Positions 6,446 through 42,108 of a stretch of 52,961 nucleotides of DNA are shown here, piece after piece; position 1 is the stretch's first letter, and the number at the start of each line of letters is the position of its first letter. The stretch lies in sequence record PP180002; one strand, written 5' to 3'. Below the pieces are notes generated by a model that had not been told where the DNA came from, made no database searches, and saw nothing but the letters and a program-made list of their open reading frames with translations. A program made the position numbers and the translations under genes. Source of the DNA: Escherichia phage mEp013.

Positions 6446-6982
6446 TCATTGACAGCAAACAATCTCTTTATATGCCTCTTCTACCATGTCGAATACTTCC
6501 GGCCTGTAATAGAAAAACTCATTGCTGCCATCAAATTTTACAGGAAAGTTAATTTTATAATTGCTGAAATATTTATGCATCGTGCTTTCTAGTTTATGTA
6601 TATTTTCGGTTGACCCTTCTAACGTTTTCACGATACACAAATCAGGGATTCTAACGCCTGCTTTATGTGCGCTTTTTAATATTTCATTTCTTCGCTCGTT
6701 ATCCTTAACGCTTACACCGATTTTCATTTGTGTAGGTAATTCCAGATCATCAACCATGATGTAAAGTTTGCCATACTCATAACTAAGGAAACCGTATTTC
6801 GCGCATTTTGGGCAGCCGCGCCCGCGCTTAAGGTCGCTAGGAGTAGCCGACCACTCATGATCACAAACCTTACAGCGGCATGATACTTTTGTTTTGCAAT
6901 TGATAATTTCTCCCAACACTTCAACATTGGGGTTAATTCTTGAGATAGCGGCAACTTGCTCCTTATGAGTTAACTTGCGCAT
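6446..6982 (-). CDS. zinc-ribbon plus GIY-YIG-like (T5orf172/MUG113-type) protein, single-repeat paralog of 39479..40789
   Basis: One LTHKEQVAAI..C.C..C.HEW..GCPKC repeat then GKLYIMVDD..KIGVS..ERRN..EFFYY domain shared with the 436-aa protein; ATG at 6982 has RBS AGGAG. Confidence 0.7.
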   Translation of the reverse strand: MRKLTHKEQVAAISRINPNVEVLGEIINCKTKVSCRCKVCDHEWSATPSDLKRGRGCPKCAKYGFLSYEYGKLYIMVDDLELPTQMKIGVSVKDNERRNEILKSAHKAGVRIPDLCIVKTLEGSTENIHKLESTMHKYFSNYKINFPVKFDGSNEFFYYRPEVFDMVEEAYKEIVCCQ

Positions 6983-7115
6983 TGTCATAGCTCCTAAAAA
7001 CGCATCAGACGCGCTACAACGCAAAAAATCCCACCGCGTAACCCACTTGTAAGGGTGCAGTGTCTTTTTTGCGCCAGAAGCGCAATCAGGTGGCTAATTT
7101 TTGATTTACAGACTG

Positions 7116-24723: not shown

Positions 24724-25257
24724 ATGGCTAAGGCTAAAGGCATTAAGTTGCCTCAATTCAAAGTCCCGCTCTTTGAGCATACAACAGTTTTCTTTTGCCC
24801 GACCCGCGAGATGTTCTATGAATTTTGCGAAAAGGCAGGGATCCCAATCGAACCTGATTTCGAACTGGCAGGAGGATTGACGCTTACTTGCACGGGTGAG
24901 AAAGGCGGTAACTTCTACGTGATCGCAGTATTCGATAATGAGTTAGGAACGCTAACACATGAAGTGGCACATGCTACATTTCATTGTTTAAGTGATGTTG
25001 GCGTAATGGCTGCAACAGATCCCAGCCATCCAGCCAATGAGACTTACGCTTATATGATTGGGCGCATGTTTGATGCTTTTTATCCTGTACTACTTGAAAG
25101 CATAGACGCACAAGCCGCAGCTATCCGGGCGCAACAAGCGCTAGAAGAAGCTGAAAGAAAAAAAGAAGCCAAAAGAAAAGCAAAAGCAAAAGCAAAAGAG
25201 CCGCCAAAAGTGGAAAAATACATTGTTGCGTGGCGTAGCCGTTATGCAATGGGATGA
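24724..25257 (+). CDS. HExxH-motif protein (putative zinc metallopeptidase-like), lysine-rich C-terminus
   Basis: HEVAH motif; KAKAKAK tail; RBS GAGGAA. Confidence 0.5.
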   Translation: MAKAKGIKLPQFKVPLFEHTTVFFCPTREMFYEFCEKAGIPIEPDFELAGGLTLTCTGEKGGNFYVIAVFDNELGTLTHEVAHATFHCLSDVGVMAATDPSHPANETYAYMIGRMFDAFYPVLLESIDAQAAAIRAQQALEEAERKKEAKRKAKAKAKEPPKVEKYIVAWRSRYAMG

Positions 25258-25729
25258 TTATTTCAGTTATAACCAAGAAACAGGGGATCTAATGTGGAAG
25301 GTGTACAGATCGCCAAACGCAAAGCCAGGTGACATTATCAGAGGGACTAAATCAAGAAACAAGCATTTGCGAGTGAATTTAAACAGAAAATGTTATCAAG
25401 TTCATTGCATTATTTGGGAAATGCACAACGGCCCAATCCCTGAAGGTTATGAGATAGACCATATTGACCATGATAGATGGAATAACAGGTTATCTAATTT
25501 GAGGCTTGTTGATGATGAAGGCAATGCGCACAATATGAGTTTGTTTAAAACCAATACAAGCGGTGTTTCCGGGGTGGGCTGGCATAGTCAACGTAAAAAA
25601 TGGCGTGCAACAATATGGCATAAATGCAAACAAGTATCACTTGGTTTGTTTGACAATTTTGATGATGCTGTAATGGCACGGCGTGAAGCCGAGATTAAAT
25701 ATGGCTATCACCCAAATCATGGTCATTAA
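25244..25729 (+). CDS. HNH endonuclease with AP2-like DNA-binding domain (terminase-associated)
   Basis: HNH motif YEIDHIDHDRWNNRLSNL; AP2-like SGVSGVGWHSQRKKWRATIW; upstream of terS. Confidence 0.75.
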   Translation: MQWDDYFSYNQETGDLMWKVYRSPNAKPGDIIRGTKSRNKHLRVNLNRKCYQVHCIIWEMHNGPIPEGYEIDHIDHDRWNNRLSNLRLVDDEGNAHNMSLFKTNTSGVSGVGWHSQRKKWRATIWHKCKQVSLGLFDNFDDAVMARREAEIKYGYHPNHGH

Positions 25730-37216: not shown

Positions 37217-39424
37217 ATGACCACAAATGTAGGCACGATCGAATATACCGTTGATGCAAAAACCGAACGGTTGCTCGTAGCTCAACGCAAGGCGGAAGAC
37301 TCGTTTGATAAAATCGAGCAGGGCGCTAAACGTACCGATAAATCAGTTCGGTCACTTAACACCACGATAAGTAATTTATCCAAAGCTGTGAACATTGGAA
37401 TGATGGTCATGGCTGCAAAAAAATTCCTGGAGATCGCAGATAACGTGAATCTGCTACGCGCCAGGGTGACGCGACTATCGAGTGGCATTGCTGACGCAAA
37501 ATCGAATTTTGACGGGATTATTCAGATATCGAATCGCACAGGGATGAGTGTTCAAAGCACCGGGAAGCTGTGGGAAAGCCTAAAGGCCAGCCTACAGGAT
37601 ACCAGTGCGACAAGTCAGCAGGTATTGCAACTTACCGACTCGCTTCAGAAAATAGGCCGTATCGGAGGTAGCTCCTCAGATGAAATGTCAAACGCACTTC
37701 GCCAGTTAGGACAATCCCTGACGGGTGGCATTGTTCGCGCGGAAGAATACAACTCTGTGCTTGAAAACATGCCCGAAGTATGGCGACGCGTCGCTAAACA
37801 AATGGGGATCTCGATGGGTGAACTTCGCGCAAGAATGCTTGATGGTAAGCTCACCGCCGAGGATGTTACCAACTCAATTCTTGCTGGCGCAGAAGATATA
37901 GAGAAGGACTTCGCACAGCTGCCAACAACAACAGATCAGGCATTTAACGAGCTAAAAAACAACTTCGATCTGTTAATTGACACGCTAAACCAAACGCTTG
38001 GAGTGTCTGATTTGGTAGTTGCTGGTATACAGGCTGTTTCTAGTGAAGTTCAGATATTATCAGGTTGGTTTAAGTCCCTGGCGAGCGATAGCACGTCATT
38101 AACTGATAAATTGTGGCTATTGGCTGGGGCGTTCGAGGGTATAGTACCTGGGCTTAGTTTGTTCCGCTCTCAAGCGAAACAGGTTGGATGGTTTGGCGAT
38201 GGAGATCAGGAGTTTGTTTCTACGCTTCCCACGGGGCAAGCTGGTGTAAGTCGCATAACATTTAAGCCTCAACCTGGTGGTAGAGGTAAGAACGGAAAAG
38301 GTAAAAAATCCGGCAAGTCAGAAGCCGAACGCCTTGCGGAACAGGGTGTACGCGTTTCAGATACATATAACGAAGATTCAGCAGCAATGCGTAAAGCGCT
38401 TGAGTCACAAAAAGCTCTGGATGCTGCATTTAAAGCCGGGAAAATAACCATGCTTGAATACAAAGGCGCAATGAAGGGAATTGGTGATGAATTGCGCGAA
38501 ACTCTAGCAGAAATTAACGACCCGATCAATAGTCTGCAAGAAAAATGGGACAAAATGATTCCATCACTGGATCAGAAACGCGGCGAGCTGGACCCAATAC
38601 AGCAGGCGCAAAATGAATGGACCATACGCAAGCAAATGCTGGAAGATCTTGGCGCTACCGAGCAATACATGAAGGAGCAAGAAAGAGCGCACGCACAAGA
38701 AATGCTATCCCTTGAATGGGAGCGATATAAAGCACAGTCAATGAGCTACAAACTATTGGGTGATACCGTTGATGCAATGGGAGGATCTGCAACAAATGCG
38801 CTTGTGGGCCTGGTTAACGGCACTCAAAGTTGGCAGCAGGCGCTGGCTAACATTGGCAATACAATCCTTTCCTCCGTTATCGGTACACTTGTTCAAATGG
38901 GTGCTGAATGGGTTAAACAGCAATTGATCGGTGAGGCCGCCAGCGCTGCGGCAACAGCTAAAGCACTAGCCGAGGCTACTGCATTAGGATCTGCGTGGGC
39001 CACTCCTGCATACCTGGCAAACGTTGCCACGATGGGCGGAGCGGCGACCGTGGGGGGCACGAGTCTTGCCACTGGTGTGGCTGGGGCTAAGGCGCTTGGG
39101 CTTGCTGGCGCTCGTTATAACGGCGGTGCGGTTAATGGTGGCAATCTTTATAGGGTCGGGGAAGGTGGAAAAATGGAGCTGTTCACCACTACTGACGGGA
39201 AACAGTACATGATCCCCGGAGAAAACGGGCGTATCACTCCTAATCGCGACCTTGTCAGCGGTGGTGGCGTCACAATCAATAGTCCGATCACCATTAACAC
39301 TACGAATGGCTTCAGTGAGGAAGACTCAAGACGTCTGGAAGACACCATGAAGCGCGTTGCTATGGGAGTAGTTAGAGAGCAAAGTTCAAGGCCCGGAGGA
39401 CTTATCCAACCGCGAAGAAAATAA
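37217..39424 (+). CDS. H: tail tape measure protein
   Basis: 735 aa, Gly/Ala-rich C-terminal region, position before M/L/K/I/J. Confidence 0.85.
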   Translation: MTTNVGTIEYTVDAKTERLLVAQRKAEDSFDKIEQGAKRTDKSVRSLNTTISNLSKAVNIGMMVMAAKKFLEIADNVNLLRARVTRLSSGIADAKSNFDGIIQISNRTGMSVQSTGKLWESLKASLQDTSATSQQVLQLTDSLQKIGRIGGSSSDEMSNALRQLGQSLTGGIVRAEEYNSVLENMPEVWRRVAKQMGISMGELRARMLDGKLTAEDVTNSILAGAEDIEKDFAQLPTTTDQAFNELKNNFDLLIDTLNQTLGVSDLVVAGIQAVSSEVQILSGWFKSLASDSTSLTDKLWLLAGAFEGIVPGLSLFRSQAKQVGWFGDGDQEFVSTLPTGQAGVSRITFKPQPGGRGKNGKGKKSGKSEAERLAEQGVRVSDTYNEDSAAMRKALESQKALDAAFKAGKITMLEYKGAMKGIGDELRETLAEINDPINSLQEKWDKMIPSLDQKRGELDPIQQAQNEWTIRKQMLEDLGATEQYMKEQERAHAQEMLSLEWERYKAQSMSYKLLGDTVDAMGGSATNALVGLVNGTQSWQQALANIGNTILSSVIGTLVQMGAEWVKQQLIGEAASAAATAKALAEATALGSAWATPAYLANVATMGGAATVGGTSLATGVAGAKALGLAGARYNGGAVNGGNLYRVGEGGKMELFTTTDGKQYMIPGENGRITPNRDLVSGGGVTINSPITINTTNGFSEEDSRRLEDTMKRVAMGVVREQSSRPGGLIQPRRK

Positions 39425-39478
39425 TTTATTAATTTGATCTTACGCCCGCAAGATAATGATGTATCCTGCGGGCTTTGC

Positions 39479-40789
39479 TTACGCTGCTTTTATAATTTCT
39501 TCATACTTATCTTCCACCATGCTAAAAACTTCTGGTCTATAGTAGAAAAATTCGCAACTACCATCAAATTTTACGGGGAAGTTAATTTTGTAATTACTAA
39601 GTTTTTTGTGTATCGCGCCCTCTAGTTCAAAGATATTTTGTGTCGGACCTTCTAATGTTTTTACGATATGTAAATCAGGAATTGTCACACCAGCCTTATG
39701 TGCACTGCTTAGTATTCTATTCCTTCGTTCGTTTTCCTTAACACTTACCCCTACTTTCATTAGCGTTGGCACTTCCATATCGTCAACCATGATATAAAGT
39801 TTGCCGCGTTCGTAGGATAAAAAACCTTTTTTCGCACATTTTAAACATCCGCTACCTCCTTTAAGTTTTTGCGGCGTGGTTCTCCACTTATAGCCACACA
39901 CTTTACATAGACACGATACTTTGGTTTTGTTTCCTGTTATCTTACCAACAACTTTGATATTAGGGTTGATGTTGGCAATGGCTTTTATTTGTTCTTCATG
40001 CGATATTCTTCGCGCTTGTGCTCTTTTTGATGCCGCGCACTTCGGGCAACCAGTGCCTTTTTTAAGGCTGGCTGGAGTAGTTAACCATTCATGACCGCAA
40101 TACTTACAGCTGCATAACGTCCTTGTAGTATTGCTAATAATTTTCCCTAACACCTCAACGCCAGGGCTAGTTTTCGCAATAGCTGTAACCTGTTCTTTGT
40201 GTGATAATTTCATCTTCCCTGAACATTTCGGGCAGCCAGTACCATGCTTGAGATTATTTGGAGTGGCTGACCATTCATAATTGCAAATCTTACATTTGCA
40301 TAATACGTTTTTTAAACTTGAAGTAATTTTTCCCAAGATTTCAATATTGCTGTTAACCTTCGCAATGGATGCAACTTGTTCTTCATGCGTTAATCTTCTA
40401 TCTGTACATTTCGGGCAACCTTGCCCGATTTTAAGTGTTTCAGGTCTAGCCATCCATTCGTGATTACAAACCTTGCAATGGCATAATACTTTTGTTTTAT
40501 TATTAATAATTTTCCCTAATACCTTAACATCAGGATTAACTTTAGCAATAATTGCAATCTGTTCTTCATGTGGTAATGCTCGTTTTTGCGCTCTTTTTGA
40601 TGCCGCGCACTTCGGGCAACCAATACCACGCTTAAGATCAGCAGGTCTACCAAACCATTCGTGATTACAAGTTTTGCAGCAGCATGATACTTTTTCCATA
40701 TTCCCGGTAATTACCCCTATCACCTCGATGTTGGGGTTAACTTTTGCAATGGCGGCAACTTGTTCTTCGTGTGTTAATTTTTTTGTCAT
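39479..40789 (-). CDS. five tandem zinc-ribbon repeats plus GIY-YIG-like (T5orf172/MUG113-type) C-terminal domain
   Basis: Five ~62-aa repeats (L.HEEQ.A.IAKVNP...C.C..C.HEW...GCPKC) then GKLYIMVDD..KVGVS..ERRN..EFFYY domain; paralog of 6446..6982. Confidence 0.7.
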   Translation of the reverse strand: MTKKLTHEEQVAAIAKVNPNIEVIGVITGNMEKVSCCCKTCNHEWFGRPADLKRGIGCPKCAASKRAQKRALPHEEQIAIIAKVNPDVKVLGKIINNKTKVLCHCKVCNHEWMARPETLKIGQGCPKCTDRRLTHEEQVASIAKVNSNIEILGKITSSLKNVLCKCKICNYEWSATPNNLKHGTGCPKCSGKMKLSHKEQVTAIAKTSPGVEVLGKIISNTTRTLCSCKYCGHEWLTTPASLKKGTGCPKCAASKRAQARRISHEEQIKAIANINPNIKVVGKITGNKTKVSCLCKVCGYKWRTTPQKLKGGSGCLKCAKKGFLSYERGKLYIMVDDMEVPTLMKVGVSVKENERRNRILSSAHKAGVTIPDLHIVKTLEGPTQNIFELEGAIHKKLSNYKINFPVKFDGSCEFFYYRPEVFSMVEDKYEEIIKAA

Positions 40790-40866
40790 AATACCGCTCC
40801 TACATTATTCCGTTTCATGAATAATCATTACTAACCACAATTGTGTTATTAATTACATGAATAAAT

Positions 40867-41037
40867 TTACTCAAATCTTGTATATCCTCTTTCAATTTTC
40901 CCTCCGTGTACACTTCTTGCAAACACCGCGTCAGTATACCTGAAAAATGGACATGTATATGTATCCACTTTGCTATCCATATATTTTAGCACCCATGCCA
41001 TGCGTTTTACATTGCTTTTATTTGCCTGGCTTTTCAT
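40867..41037 (-). CDS. hypothetical protein (56 aa)
   Basis: Hand-translated MKSQANKSNVKRMAWVLKYMD...; RBS GGAGGAAAA. Confidence 0.4.
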   Translation of the reverse strand: MKSQANKSNVKRMAWVLKYMDSKVDTYTCPFFRYTDAVFARSVHGGKIERGYTRFE

Positions 41038-41055
41038 TTTATTTTCCTCCGCAAA

Positions 41056-41148
41056 TCACAACCTGCCGTTTCTTGCTATGTAGCTGCGAGCAAACATCAC
41101 CTGCCAGATGTTCCAGATCTCCCTCCAGGTGAATTTATCGTCATCCAT
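41056..41148 (-). CDS. hypothetical small protein (30 aa)
   Basis: Hand-translated MDDDKFTWREIWNIWQVMFARSYIARNGRL; RBS GAGGTG. Confidence 0.3.
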   Translation of the reverse strand: MDDDKFTWREIWNIWQVMFARSYIARNGRL

Positions 41149-41156
41149 ATTTCACC

Positions 41157-41411
41157 TCATTTATGTGCCCCTTTTACGCCACAGTGTCGGTTGTATTCCA
41201 GATGGTCAATAATTAACCACATCTTTAAATCTTCGCTGAATAACCGCCAATCTGGGTTGATGTCAAATTTATAACCGTAGCCATCGCGTAATTTTTTGGG
41301 GTTGGCCTCTTTTTTCAGGAAAGCGTTTAATAAGGCTTTGCCCTTTTTGATGATCCGGTCCTGTGCGTTTTTCTGTGCTTTCAGGTTTTTACCAATCGCC
41401 ACCAATTTCAT
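41157..41411 (-). CDS. hypothetical basic protein (84 aa)
   Basis: ATG at 41411 with RBS GGGGTGG inside ORF 41157..41429. Confidence 0.5.
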   Translation of the reverse strand: MKLVAIGKNLKAQKNAQDRIIKKGKALLNAFLKKEANPKKLRDGYGYKFDINPDWRLFSEDLKMWLIIDHLEYNRHCGVKGAHK

Positions 41412-41429
41412 AATCCACCCCGCAATCAA

Positions 41430-41585
41430 TTAGTTGACCACTTTCAGGAAGAAATCACGGTATTCGTCTTCTTTTGCGTTCATCATGAACTGACCGTATT
41501 TGAATGCGTCATCAAAGCCTTTGACTATCGCCACCTCAACCTGCTCGAATGCTTTGTTTAGCATTACCACTACATAGCGTTTCAT
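41430..41585 (-). CDS. hypothetical protein (51 aa)
   Basis: ATG at 41585 with RBS GTGGGG inside ORF 41430..41636. Confidence 0.4.
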   Translation of the reverse strand: MKRYVVVMLNKAFEQVEVAIVKGFDDAFKYGQFMMNAKEDEYRDFFLKVVN

Positions 41586-41754
41586 ATTGTCCCCACTTTG
41601 TTGGTACTGTTTTCTCTTCTTGCTTTCTGTATACATCTTGTTACGTCCTGCGTGAAGCCATTTCGTAAACTGGGTATAATTCTTGTGACGAAGTTCTCAT
41701 TTTCGCGTAGAAGCGCGTAAAGATGTATGCAATATGTAACTTATAGGGGGAATC

Positions 41755-42108
41755 ATGCCGGAAGTTTTCAGATGGACGCCGCAAAGAAGCTACAGCGTGA
41801 CCAGGGAACCAAATGTGTCGGTCGTTAAACTTGGTGATGGTTATGAACAGCGCCAGGCGAAAGGGATTAACACGTTGCTTGATAGCTACACCCTGGTTTT
41901 TAAAGGCAGTAGCGCAGGATGCGGTGATAGTGGGAACGTGGCGATCCAGGCAGAAGCATTCTTGAGGGCGCGCGGCGCTGTCGAGGCTTTTTACTGGTCG
42001 CCGTCTATGGATGGAGTGCAAAGGCTTTTTGTTTGCCGTAGCTGGAGTATGACAAAGGACGGGCCTGTATACACGCTAAACGCAACATTTGAGCAAGTTG
42101 TCAGCTAG
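41755..42108 (+). CDS. M: minor tail protein, lambda gpM-like
   Basis: 117 aa; matches lambda M pattern as recalled (FRWTP, KLGDGY.QR, F..A.GA...FYW.P, FEQVV). Confidence 0.8.
   Translation: MPEVFRWTPQRSYSVTREPNVSVVKLGDGYEQRQAKGINTLLDSYTLVFKGSSAGCGDSGNVAIQAEAFLRARGAVEAFYWSPSMDGVQRLFVCRSWSMTKDGPVYTLNATFEQVVS

What the first reader, a model, noticed from the sequence alone, without database searches (positions are those of the whole stretch)
39479..40789. Protein of five tandem zinc-ribbon repeats fused to a GIY-YIG-like domain, on the opposite strand inside the tail operon
The 436-aa product has five ~62-aa repeats, each with four Cys (L.HEEQ.A.IAKVNP...C.C..C.HEW...GCPKC), followed by a ~110-aa domain (GKLYIMVDD..KVGVS..ERRN..EFFYY) resembling T5orf172/MUG113-type GIY-YIG-like modules. 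The DNA is correspondingly repetitive (~39823-40780). A shorter paralog with one repeat and the same C-terminal domain lies in the replication operon (6446..6982). Repeat-number variation between paralogs suggests an evolving nucleic-acid-recognition array, possibly a nuclease-based exclusion or homing function.
Basis: partly seen in the sequence, partly recalled or inferred. Interest (0 to 1): 0.75.

Follow-up and report, generated by a model that had tools for sequence, protein, structure and literature searches.

The report
Zinc-finger-array homing endonuclease gene in coliphage
This phage gene encodes five zinc-finger DNA-reading modules tethered to a DNA-cutting domain; it belongs to an already described class of probably selfish "homing" nuclease genes, so it is a clear but ordinary example.

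Summary
Window 39479..40789 (-) is an intact 436-aa ORF with five 57-aa Cys4 zinc-finger repeats (51-65% identical) and a ~115-aa C-terminal domain. A 178-aa paralog at 6446..6982 (-) has one repeat and the same C-terminal domain.

The window is phage mEp013. Close relatives show presence/absence at both loci:
- mEp010 has a clean empty site.
- The tail-locus copy in mEp021 carries two in-frame stop codons.
- mEp021 has six repeats where mEp013 has one.
- HNH endonuclease genes occupy neighbouring slots.

A 7-codon remnant of a displaced small ORF lies just upstream of the gene, and the last ~50-100 codons of the tape-measure gene are inherited with it.

This architecture, T5orf172 with repeated CapR/DUF723/DUF4379 zinc fingers and variable repeat number, was described as a putative homing endonuclease class by Barth et al. 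2023. The verdict is a new member of a known kind. Nuclease activity and homing are untested.

The parts
39479..40789 (-). 436-aa gene: five zinc-finger repeats plus a T5orf172 nuclease-like domain (putative free-standing homing endonuclease)
   Evidence: ORF. Pfam DUF4379, CapR and T5orf172. phrog_681 'endonuclease' at E 4.7e-83. dN/dS of 0.19 against the mEp021 copy.
40607..40777 (-). Repeat 1 (aa 5-61), Cys4 zinc-finger module
40406..40576 (-). Repeat 2 (aa 72-128)
40223..40393 (-). Repeat 3 (aa 133-189); the mEp021 ortholog carries two in-frame stops in this repeat
40037..40207 (-). Repeat 4 (aa 195-251)
39836..40006 (-). Repeat 5 (aa 262-318)
39482..39835 (-). C-terminal T5orf172 / GIY-YIG-like domain (aa 319-436). 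Residues invariant among 56 homologs include Y332, K345, G347, R355, E390, H394 and E413.
40797..40801 (-). AGGAG ribosome-binding site, 7 nt upstream of the ATG
   Evidence: Read directly from the sequence.
40805..40828 (-). 7-codon remnant (MIIHETE*) of the 59-60-aa small ORF that occupies this position in mEp010 and the E. coli M15 prophage. It marks the right-hand junction of the inserted block.
   Evidence: the homology break at window 40797 is seen
39268..40796 (.). Block that distinguishes the gene-carrying allele from the gene-less allele of the M15 prophage. It comprises the last 157 nt of the tape-measure gene, the intergenic hairpin and the endonuclease gene. M15 has 341 nt here instead.
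   Evidence: mEp021 shares 39107-40814 with the window
39444..39473 (.). Imperfect GC-rich hairpin between the convergent stop codons of the tape-measure gene and the endonuclease gene. It is a candidate bidirectional terminator.
   Evidence: Sequence. The equivalent site is annotated as a terminator in mEp021. The simple terminator scan did not call it.
6446..6982 (-). 178-aa paralog (mEp013_12): one zinc-finger repeat (6803-6973) plus a T5orf172 domain (6449-6802). It lies between the replication initiator gene and the exonuclease/helicase genes.
   Evidence: The AlphaFold model has pLDDT 95.2.
6451..7008 (.). Segment of 558 nt carrying the paralog. mEp010 has 9 nt here (an empty site) and mEp515 has 762 nt carrying an unrelated gene.

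Best explanation
The gene is a free-standing homing endonuclease gene of the T5orf172 class, a branch of the GIY-YIG nuclease superfamily. The host genome is the temperate coliphage mEp013.

**Shown by computation**
- The protein has five independently folded ~57-aa Cys4 zinc-finger modules of the CapR/DUF4379 type, joined like beads on a string by short or basic helical linkers.
- They are followed by a GIY-YIG-fold domain that keeps the residues expected for catalysis: Tyr332, Arg355 and Glu413.
- The gene and its one-repeat paralog are present, absent, broken or resized at the same two loci in near-identical phages.

**Inferred**
- Each zinc finger contacts a few base pairs, so the array reads a long asymmetric site.
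- The tethered nuclease cuts nearby.
- When a related phage or prophage lacking the gene meets mEp013 in one cell, its allele is cut near the 3' end of the tape-measure gene and the small ORF.
- Recombinational repair from the mEp013 copy then transfers the gene together with the adjacent end of the tape-measure gene.
- Unequal recombination between repeats changes repeat number and so retargets the enzyme.
For: **Domains and fold**
- Pfam, PHROG 681 and PHROG 559 ('endonuclease') matches.
- High-confidence models. The paralog has pLDDT 95.2. The full-length protein has pLDDT 89.3 but pTM 0.36, meaning folded domains with an undefined mutual arrangement.

**Conservation**
- K, G, R, E, H and E columns are invariant in 56 homologs.
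- CxxC...CxxC is near-invariant in 557 repeats, with hypervariable positions clustered around the zinc knuckles.
- Purifying selection: dN/dS is 0.19 overall and 0.086 in the nuclease domain.

**Mobility signatures**
- Clean empty site in mEp010 at the replication locus, 9 nt against 558 nt.
- The tail-locus gene is absent from mEp010, mEp044, mEp554, mEp515 and the M15 prophage, with a sharp junction at 40797 in four of them and at 40870 in mEp554.
- A 7-codon remnant of the displaced ORF.
- A pseudogene copy in mEp021.
- The 3' end of the tape-measure gene is co-inherited with the gene.
- In-register difference of 1 versus 6 repeats at one locus, and a near-identical tandem pair in mEp021_12.
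- HNH endonuclease genes sit in neighbouring slots in relatives.
- Homologs occur in other prophage contexts.

**Literature**
- The T5orf172 nuclease Odn cleaves DNA in vitro, and its E180A mutant does not (PMC8263062).
- The CapR cysteines are required for DNA binding (PMC8096241).
- T5orf172 genes with repeated CapR/DUF723/DUF4379 fingers were described as putative homing endonucleases (PMC10448857).
Against: - No T5orf172 gene has been shown experimentally to home (stated in PMC10448857). Nothing here tests cleavage.
- Both loci are general hot spots. Unrelated cargo occupies the same slots: a 247-aa product in mEp515 whose sequence looks Bro-N/antirepressor-like to me (not searched against any family library), small ORFs, and ParE-like and KilAC genes in prophages. 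Ordinary modular exchange could therefore produce the same presence/absence pattern.
- The block shared with mEp021 is only ~87% identical, lower than the 92-94% of the flanking tail genes. Any transfer is not recent.
- Only 12 of 5426 complete E. coli genomes carry even a distant DNA relative, and none carries a close one. The element is not visibly sweeping.
- Foldseek against the PDB and hhalign against a single I-TevI sequence were not significant.
Confidence: 0.6

Rival explanations
1. The gene is a domesticated nuclease used in competition between phages, or between phage and satellite. The precedent is ICP1 Odn. It would be expressed from the prophage or early in infection. The zinc-finger array would recognise a site in rival phages or satellites and the nuclease would destroy them. 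The gene would be kept because it benefits the phage, not because it homes.
For: - The nuclease domain is under strong purifying selection, with dN/dS 0.086.
- The gene sits in a minus-strand cassette of accessory genes inside the tail operon. In related prophages this region carries ParE-like and KilAC genes.
- A T5orf172 nuclease is known to have been co-opted in this way (PMC8263062).
- The paralog has a weak match to a candidate defence protein, PDC-S57, at E 4e-5 (one search is not the source).
Against: - Close relatives lack it or carry it broken, so it is dispensable.
- Odn owes its specificity to a captured RepA_N domain. This protein instead has the standard zinc-finger array of the putative homing class (PMC10448857).
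- No target is known.
- The PADLOC match for the 436-aa protein is not significant, at E 0.016.
Confidence: 0.2
2. The gene acts in recombination or repair, as a Holliday-junction-resolvase-like or structure-specific nuclease serving phage replication. This role has been proposed for T5orf172 proteins linked to single-strand-binding genes.
For: - The best structural matches are Slx1 structure-specific nucleases.
- The paralog lies in the replication module, next to an exonuclease and a DnaB helicase gene.
- The proposal appears in PMC7824862.
Against: - mEp010 replicates with an empty site at that locus.
- A five-module sequence-reading zinc-finger array with hypervariable positions fits site-specific recognition better than structure-specific recognition.
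- The larger copy is in the tail operon, not the replication module.
Confidence: 0.08
3. The protein is a nuclease-dead, sequence-specific DNA-binding regulator, in the manner of PLE CapR. The zinc-finger array would repress or tune a promoter.
For: - The CapR family match.
- CapR is a transcriptional repressor derived from this homing endonuclease lineage (PMC8096241).
- The canonical second Tyr of the GIY-YIG motif is replaced by Lys.
Against: - CapR has lost the nuclease domain. Here that domain is retained, is the most constrained part of the protein (dN/dS 0.086), and keeps the invariant Arg and Glu.
- Lys at the YIG position appears general to this subfamily: it is invariant in the 56-homolog alignments here, and my recollection (not checked here) is that the Pfam T5orf172 consensus also has it.
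Confidence: 0.05

Closest known systems
T5orf172-family putative homing endonucleases of vibriophage ICP1 and other phages (gp174, gp165, gp121, gp53, gp130; Barth, Dunham & Seed 2023, PMC10448857; Netter et al. 2021, PMC8096241)
   Same: - N-terminal CapR/DUF723/DUF4379 zinc-finger DNA-binding modules, often repeated, with a C-terminal T5orf172 domain.
- Variable presence between isolates, frameshifted or truncated alleles, and in-frame repeat deletions.
- Location next to essential genes.
- Several paralogs per genome.
   Different: - The host here is a temperate, Nus-dependent coliphage of the mEpimmI group, not a lytic vibriophage.
- Five well-resolved repeats, which score better with DUF4379 than with CapR.
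- The paper describing these phages does not mention the genes (PMC11893012).
Odn (ICP1 Gp88), origin-directed nuclease (PMC8263062)
   Same: It has a T5orf172 catalytic domain, and its DNA cleavage depends on the conserved Glu. It is the only biochemical proof for this domain that I found.
   Different: Its DNA-binding domain is a captured RepA_N domain, not a zinc-finger array. Its role is anti-satellite defence, not homing.
CapR of the V. cholerae PLE satellite (PMC8096241)
   Same: It has the same zinc-finger domain family (Pfam PF21817), and four Cys are required for DNA binding.
   Different: It has a single domain, no nuclease, and acts as a transcriptional repressor.
CapR-like x3-5 plus EDxHD/Vsr homing endonucleases in phage group I/II introns (PMC12350094)
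   Same: A tandem array of three to five ~60-aa CapR/DUF4379/DUF723-like modules is followed by a ~100-aa C-terminal nuclease.
   Different: The nuclease domain is Vsr-like, not GIY-YIG-like, and the genes are intron-encoded rather than free-standing. The homologs found here with 7-9 repeats and a different C-terminus may belong to that group.
I-TevI and the Seg free-standing GIY-YIG endonucleases of phage T4
   Different: - The domain order is reversed: the nuclease is N-terminal in I-TevI.
- I-TevI has one zinc finger plus a helix-turn-helix rather than five zinc fingers.
- I-TevI has the canonical GIY...YIG tyrosines, whereas this protein has LYI...KIG.

Membership tests
T5orf172 / MUG113 (Pfam PF10544 / PF13455, GIY-YIG superfamily) | Match to the family profile above Pfam's curated cut-off | tested here: met
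   T5orf172 scores 23.8 bits (cut-off 20) for the 436-aa protein and 25.3 bits for the paralog. MUG113 scores 27.5 bits (cut-off 22.3) for the paralog, but only 17.5 bits, below cut-off, for the 436-aa protein.
T5orf172 / MUG113 (GIY-YIG superfamily) | GIY-YIG alpha/beta fold (beta1-beta2-alpha1-beta3-alpha2-alpha3) | tested here: met
T5orf172 / MUG113 (GIY-YIG superfamily) | Conserved catalytic Arg after the YIG strand and metal-binding Glu near the C-terminus | tested here: met
   R355 and E413 (R97 and E155 in the paralog) are invariant in the 56-sequence alignments. Equivalence to I-TevI R27/E75 and Odn E180 is inferred from motif order. hhalign against I-TevI aligned KIG..R with YVG..R but was not significant.
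Canonical GIY-YIG motif | Tyr in both the 'GIY' and 'YIG' strands | tested here: not met
   The first motif is LYI, with Y332 invariant. The second is KVG/KIG, with the invariant Lys K345 in place of Tyr. So the protein is a T5orf172-type variant, not a canonical GIY-YIG enzyme.
T5orf172 / GIY-YIG nucleases | DNA endonuclease activity | not testable with these tools
   Shown only for Odn, in the literature (PMC8263062).
CapR / DUF4379 zinc-finger DNA-binding domain (PF21817 / PF14311) | Profile match above the curated cut-off, once per repeat | tested here: met
   DUF4379 scores 92.1 bits (cut-off 24.5) in 5 stretches. CapR scores 69.4 bits (cut-off 24.2) in 5 stretches.
CapR / DUF4379 zinc-finger DNA-binding domain | Two conserved Cys pairs that can bind one zinc ion | tested here: met
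   Repeat positions 34, 37, 54 and 57 (CxxC-16-CxxC) have entropy of 0.26 bits or less in 557 unique repeats. The only solved relative found is trypanosome mt-SAF33, a DUF4379 protein.
CapR / DUF4379 zinc-finger DNA-binding domain | Zinc-dependent, sequence-specific DNA binding | not testable with these tools
   Shown for CapR only (PMC8096241).
Free-standing homing endonuclease gene | Presence/absence polymorphism at the same locus in closely related genomes, with a defined empty site | tested here: met
   Replication locus: 558 nt in the window against 9 nt in mEp010. Tail locus: the junction is at 40797 against mEp010, mEp515 and M15, with a remnant of the displaced ORF.
Free-standing homing endonuclease gene | Degenerate (pseudogene) alleles in some genomes | tested here: met
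   The mEp021 tail-locus copy has two in-frame stops in repeat 3 and is annotated as two ORFs.
Free-standing homing endonuclease gene | Co-conversion of flanking sequence with the gene | tested here: inconclusive
   The last 157-318 nt of the tape-measure gene are shared only between genomes that carry the gene. Ordinary mosaic recombination would give the same picture.
Free-standing homing endonuclease gene | The enzyme cuts the gene-less allele and the gene is copied in by repair (biased inheritance) | not testable with these tools
This has also not yet been shown for any T5orf172 gene (PMC10448857).
Known anti-phage defence systems (PADLOC-DB) | Significant match to a defence-system protein model | tested here: not met
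   The only hit is the candidate single-gene system PDC-S57, at E 0.016 for the 436-aa protein and 4e-5 for the paralog, over the T5orf172 part alone.

The most novel reading that the evidence does not exclude
The ~57-aa zinc-finger modules may form a modular DNA-recognition code. Each module would read a fixed number of base pairs through the hypervariable positions (repeat positions 26-27, 42-47, 50 and 52). In-register gain, loss and shuffling of modules would then reprogram the nuclease target. The 1-versus-6-repeat difference at one locus, and the near-identical tandem pair in mEp021_12, are examples of such changes. This would be a natural TALE-like or C2H2-like programmable nuclease scaffold in phages. 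The many pairs of filled and empty sites could allow the code to be deciphered.
Probability: 0.2. Interest if true: 0.7.

Novelty: new member of a known kind. Interest (0 to 1): 0.3.

Why it matters
The gene adds a temperate, gut-prevalent coliphage group (mEpimmI) to the phages known to carry T5orf172 zinc-finger-array endonuclease genes. The six sequenced mEp phages and related E. coli prophages supply natural alleles that are filled, empty, broken and resized, at two loci, in a K-12-infecting system that is easy to manipulate. That makes this a practical place to run the first direct test of homing by a T5orf172 enzyme. It is also a practical place to relate repeat composition to target sequence. 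It does not reveal a new kind of system.

Tried and rejected
- **Tandem Repeats Finder** on 39000-41200 found only an 11-nt array. The 183-201-nt gene repeats are too diverged, so repetition had to be shown at protein/tblastn level.
- **NCBIfam** gave no meaningful hit.
- **PADLOC** gave only a weak candidate hit, so I did not file the gene as a defence system.
- **Sequence search of the PDB** with the family profile found no nuclease. It found only DUF4379 proteins of trypanosome mitoribosome assembly intermediates.
- **hhalign against the I-TevI catalytic domain** was not significant.
- **Megablast of the gene against 5426 complete E. coli genomes** found nothing. The distant mode found 12 genomes with ~890-nt relatives, probably three-repeat versions.
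- **Search for a repeated motif in the gene-less alleles** that a five-module array might read found only short, chance-level repeats. No target site could be inferred.
- **The simple promoter scan** found no minus-strand promoter for the cassette.
- **Not a real gene** was rejected. The ORF is intact, has its own AGGAG site, dN/dS is 0.19, and the models are confident.

Full report
**What the window is.** The paralog's product is 100% identical to 'hypothetical protein mEp013_12 [Escherichia phage mEp013]', which is encoded on a 52,961-bp contig, the same length as the window. The window is 90-93% identical over most of its length to the mEp010, mEp044, mEp554, mEp515 and mEp021 genomes. These are the Nus-dependent, non-lambdoid temperate 'mEpimmI' coliphages (PMC11893012). 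That paper does not discuss endonuclease or zinc-finger genes.

**Checking the observation.** The ORF 39479..40789 (-) is intact and encodes 436 aa. It lies on the opposite strand between the tape-measure gene (37217..39424, +) and the minor tail protein gene (41755..42108, +; phrog_14). It is the last gene of a minus-strand cassette of small ORFs.

Five repeats with a 57-aa core start at aa 5, 72, 133, 195 and 262.
- Pairwise identity is 51-65% in protein and 55-69% in DNA.
- tblastn of one repeat finds all the others and the paralog's repeat at E 1e-18 to 1e-24. Nothing else in the window scores better than E 0.4.
- Tandem Repeats Finder misses them because they are too diverged.

The paralog at 6446..6982 (-) has one repeat and a C-terminal domain that is 75% identical.

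One correction applies. Each repeat has five conserved cysteines (CxCxxC...CxxC). In 557 unique repeats from homologs, the four near-invariant ones are CxxC-16-CxxC.

**What the domains are.** Pfam assigns the repeats to DUF4379 'probable treble clef zinc finger' (92 bits, five stretches) and to the CapR homology domain (69 bits, five stretches). The C-terminus matches T5orf172 above its cut-off, and the paralog also matches MUG113. PHROGs places the protein in phrog_681 'endonuclease' (E 4.7e-83) and phrog_559.

An AlphaFold model of the 178-aa paralog is very confident, at pLDDT 95.2.
- Foldseek against the PDB was not significant.
- hhalign against a single I-TevI sequence was not significant either.

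In alignments of 56 homologs, the columns corresponding to Y332, K345-x-G347, R355, E390, H394 and E413 are invariant. By motif order these correspond to the GIY tyrosine, the YIG strand (with Lys replacing Tyr; my recollection, not checked here, is that this is usual for T5orf172), the catalytic Arg and the metal-binding Glu. The Glu is the residue whose mutation (E180A) abolishes DNA cleavage by the T5orf172 nuclease Odn (PMC8263062).

The full-length model has pLDDT 89.3 but pTM 0.36, with dips at the linkers. The domains are well folded but their mutual arrangement is undefined, like beads on a string.

**Evidence that it is functional.** Against the mEp021 ortholog, dN/dS is 0.19 overall, 0.22 in the repeats and 0.086 in the nuclease domain. 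Synonymous sites between the two paralogous nuclease domains in the window are saturated, while the proteins remain 75% identical. The gene has its own AGGAG site 7 nt upstream of the ATG.

**Comparative anatomy of the two loci.**

*Replication locus.*
- The 558 nt carrying the paralog (6451-7008) are replaced by 9 nt in mEp010, a clean empty site.
- In mEp515 they are replaced by a 762-nt segment with an unrelated 247-aa gene. Its product looks Bro-N/antirepressor-like to me from the sequence; I did not search it against any family library.
- In mEp021 the equivalent gene is a six-repeat, 495-aa version.
- The 1-versus-6 difference is an exact in-register indel of five repeats.
- The last two repeats of mEp021_12 are nearly identical to each other, which indicates a recent tandem duplication.

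*Tail locus.*
- mEp021 shares 39107-40814 with the window, but its copy has two in-frame stop codons in repeat 3 and was annotated as two ORFs.
- mEp010, mEp044, mEp554 and mEp515 lack the gene. mEp515 has an HNH endonuclease gene elsewhere in the same cassette.
- An E. coli M15 prophage has the same tape-measure allele as the window (92% identity) up to 39267. It then switches to the alternative allele: a different tape-measure 3' end, a different terminator and a 59-aa ORF. Homology resumes at 40797.
- Immediately upstream of the endonuclease start codon, the window retains a 7-codon remnant (MIIHETE*) of that 59-60-aa ORF.

The gene therefore arrived as a block. It displaced the body of a small ORF and brought the last ~50-100 codons of the tape-measure gene with it.

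*Elsewhere.* Relatives carry an HNH gene between the helicase and exonuclease genes, which the window lacks. The window has a homologous HNH gene at 25223..25729 instead.

**Distribution.** More than 1000 proteins match at E 1e-5 or better. Among the best 120, repeat number runs from 2 to 6 with the same C-terminal domain. Proteins with 7-9 repeats have a different C-terminus.
- Homologs sit at the replication locus of other mEpimmI-type prophages.
- One sits next to the integrase of an unrelated prophage beside the eut operon.
- tblastn finds relatives in 577 phage records from many hosts.
- Foldseek finds 267 viral proteins at E 0.001 or better, including giant viruses.
- This particular allele is rare. 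No close DNA match exists in 5426 complete E. coli genomes, and distant matches occur in 12.

**Comparison with what is known.** The architecture is published.
- Netter et al. showed that CapR is related to the N-terminal zinc-finger domains of ICP1 T5orf172 proteins, and that its four Cys are needed for DNA binding (PMC8096241).
- Barth et al. showed that a T5orf172 domain is a Glu-dependent DNase (PMC8263062).
- Barth, Dunham and Seed (PMC10448857) described T5orf172 genes as putative homing endonucleases. In their set, 87% carry CapR, DUF723 or DUF4379 zinc fingers, often repeated ('beads on a string'). They also reported in-frame repeat deletions, domain shuffling, frameshifted alleles and locations beside essential genes at boundaries of genetic exchange.
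- A 2025 paper describes three to five CapR-like modules fused to a Vsr-like nuclease in intron-encoded homing endonucleases (PMC12350094).

Every feature seen here fits that description. What is specific to this case is the host, a temperate coliphage group whose describing paper (PMC11893012) does not mention these genes, and an unusually clean set of natural alleles.

**Mechanism and rivals.**
- Best explanation: a free-standing homing endonuclease (confidence 0.6). The zinc-finger array reads a long site, the tethered GIY-YIG-type domain cuts, and repair copies the gene and its flank.
- Shown: domains, fold, conserved residues, selection and polymorphism.
- Inferred: DNA binding, cleavage, target location and biased inheritance.
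- Main caveats: homing has never been demonstrated for any T5orf172 gene, and both loci are general cargo hot spots.
- Rivals: a domesticated exclusion or anti-satellite nuclease like Odn (0.2), a recombination or structure-specific nuclease (0.08), and a nuclease-dead regulator like CapR (0.05).

**Verdict.** The finding is a new member of a known kind, with interest 0.3.

Noticed in passing
window 25223-25729 (+): A 168-aa HNH endonuclease gene lies upstream of a 166-aa ORF at 26393 whose function I did not check. It is 42-49% identical to HNH genes that sit at different loci in relatives: between the helicase and exonuclease genes in mEp010, mEp021 and mEp515, and in the tail minus-strand cassette in mEp515. 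From its sequence I think it also has an AP2-like C-terminal part; I did not run a domain search on it. It looks like a second, independently mobile endonuclease family in this phage group.
   Followed up: partly
window 37217-39424 (+), with breakpoints near 39107 and 39267: The tape-measure gene is mosaic. It is under ~77% identical in DNA to the tape-measure genes of the other mEp phages, but 92% identical to an E. coli M15 prophage up to 39267. Only its last 157-318 nt are shared with mEp021. The recombination boundary falls inside the gene, next to the endonuclease gene.
   Followed up: partly
L006 3268-4755 (mEp021_12): This is a six-repeat, 495-aa version of the replication-locus gene. 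Its fifth and sixth repeats are nearly identical, which points to a recent tandem duplication. The window's one-repeat gene aligns as a fusion of repeat 1 and repeat 6.
   Followed up: yes
L007 2068-2811 (mEp515_13): An unrelated 247-aa gene occupies exactly the slot that holds the T5orf172 paralog in the window. Its product looks Bro-N/antirepressor-like from the sequence, but I did not search it against a family library. The slot is therefore a general cargo hot spot, not one specific to endonuclease genes.
   Followed up: partly
window 40867-41037 (-): A 56-aa ORF with no PHROG match. It is homologous to mEp554_95 and is deleted, together with 40815-41092, in mEp021. It is another small presence/absence polymorphism in the minus-strand cassette.
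   Followed up: no
window 41157-41636 (-): Two small minus-strand genes (90 aa, phrog_1525; 68 aa, phrog_29810) of unknown function are conserved across the mEp group. They lie upstream of the endonuclease gene in the same cassette. No promoter for the cassette was found by the simple scan.
   Followed up: no
PDB entries 6sga_Fd and 6yxx_E2 (not in the window): The only solved structures related to the zinc-finger repeat are DUF4379 proteins of Trypanosoma brucei mitoribosome assembly intermediates (mt-SAF33). This is an unexpected home for a domain otherwise associated with viral nucleases.
   Followed up: no
homologs P0028, P0079, P0082, P0094 and others (635-756 aa): Relatives with 8-9 of the same repeats lack the T5orf172 C-terminus. 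They may carry a different nuclease domain, possibly the Vsr-like one described in PMC12350094. This was not checked.
   Followed up: no
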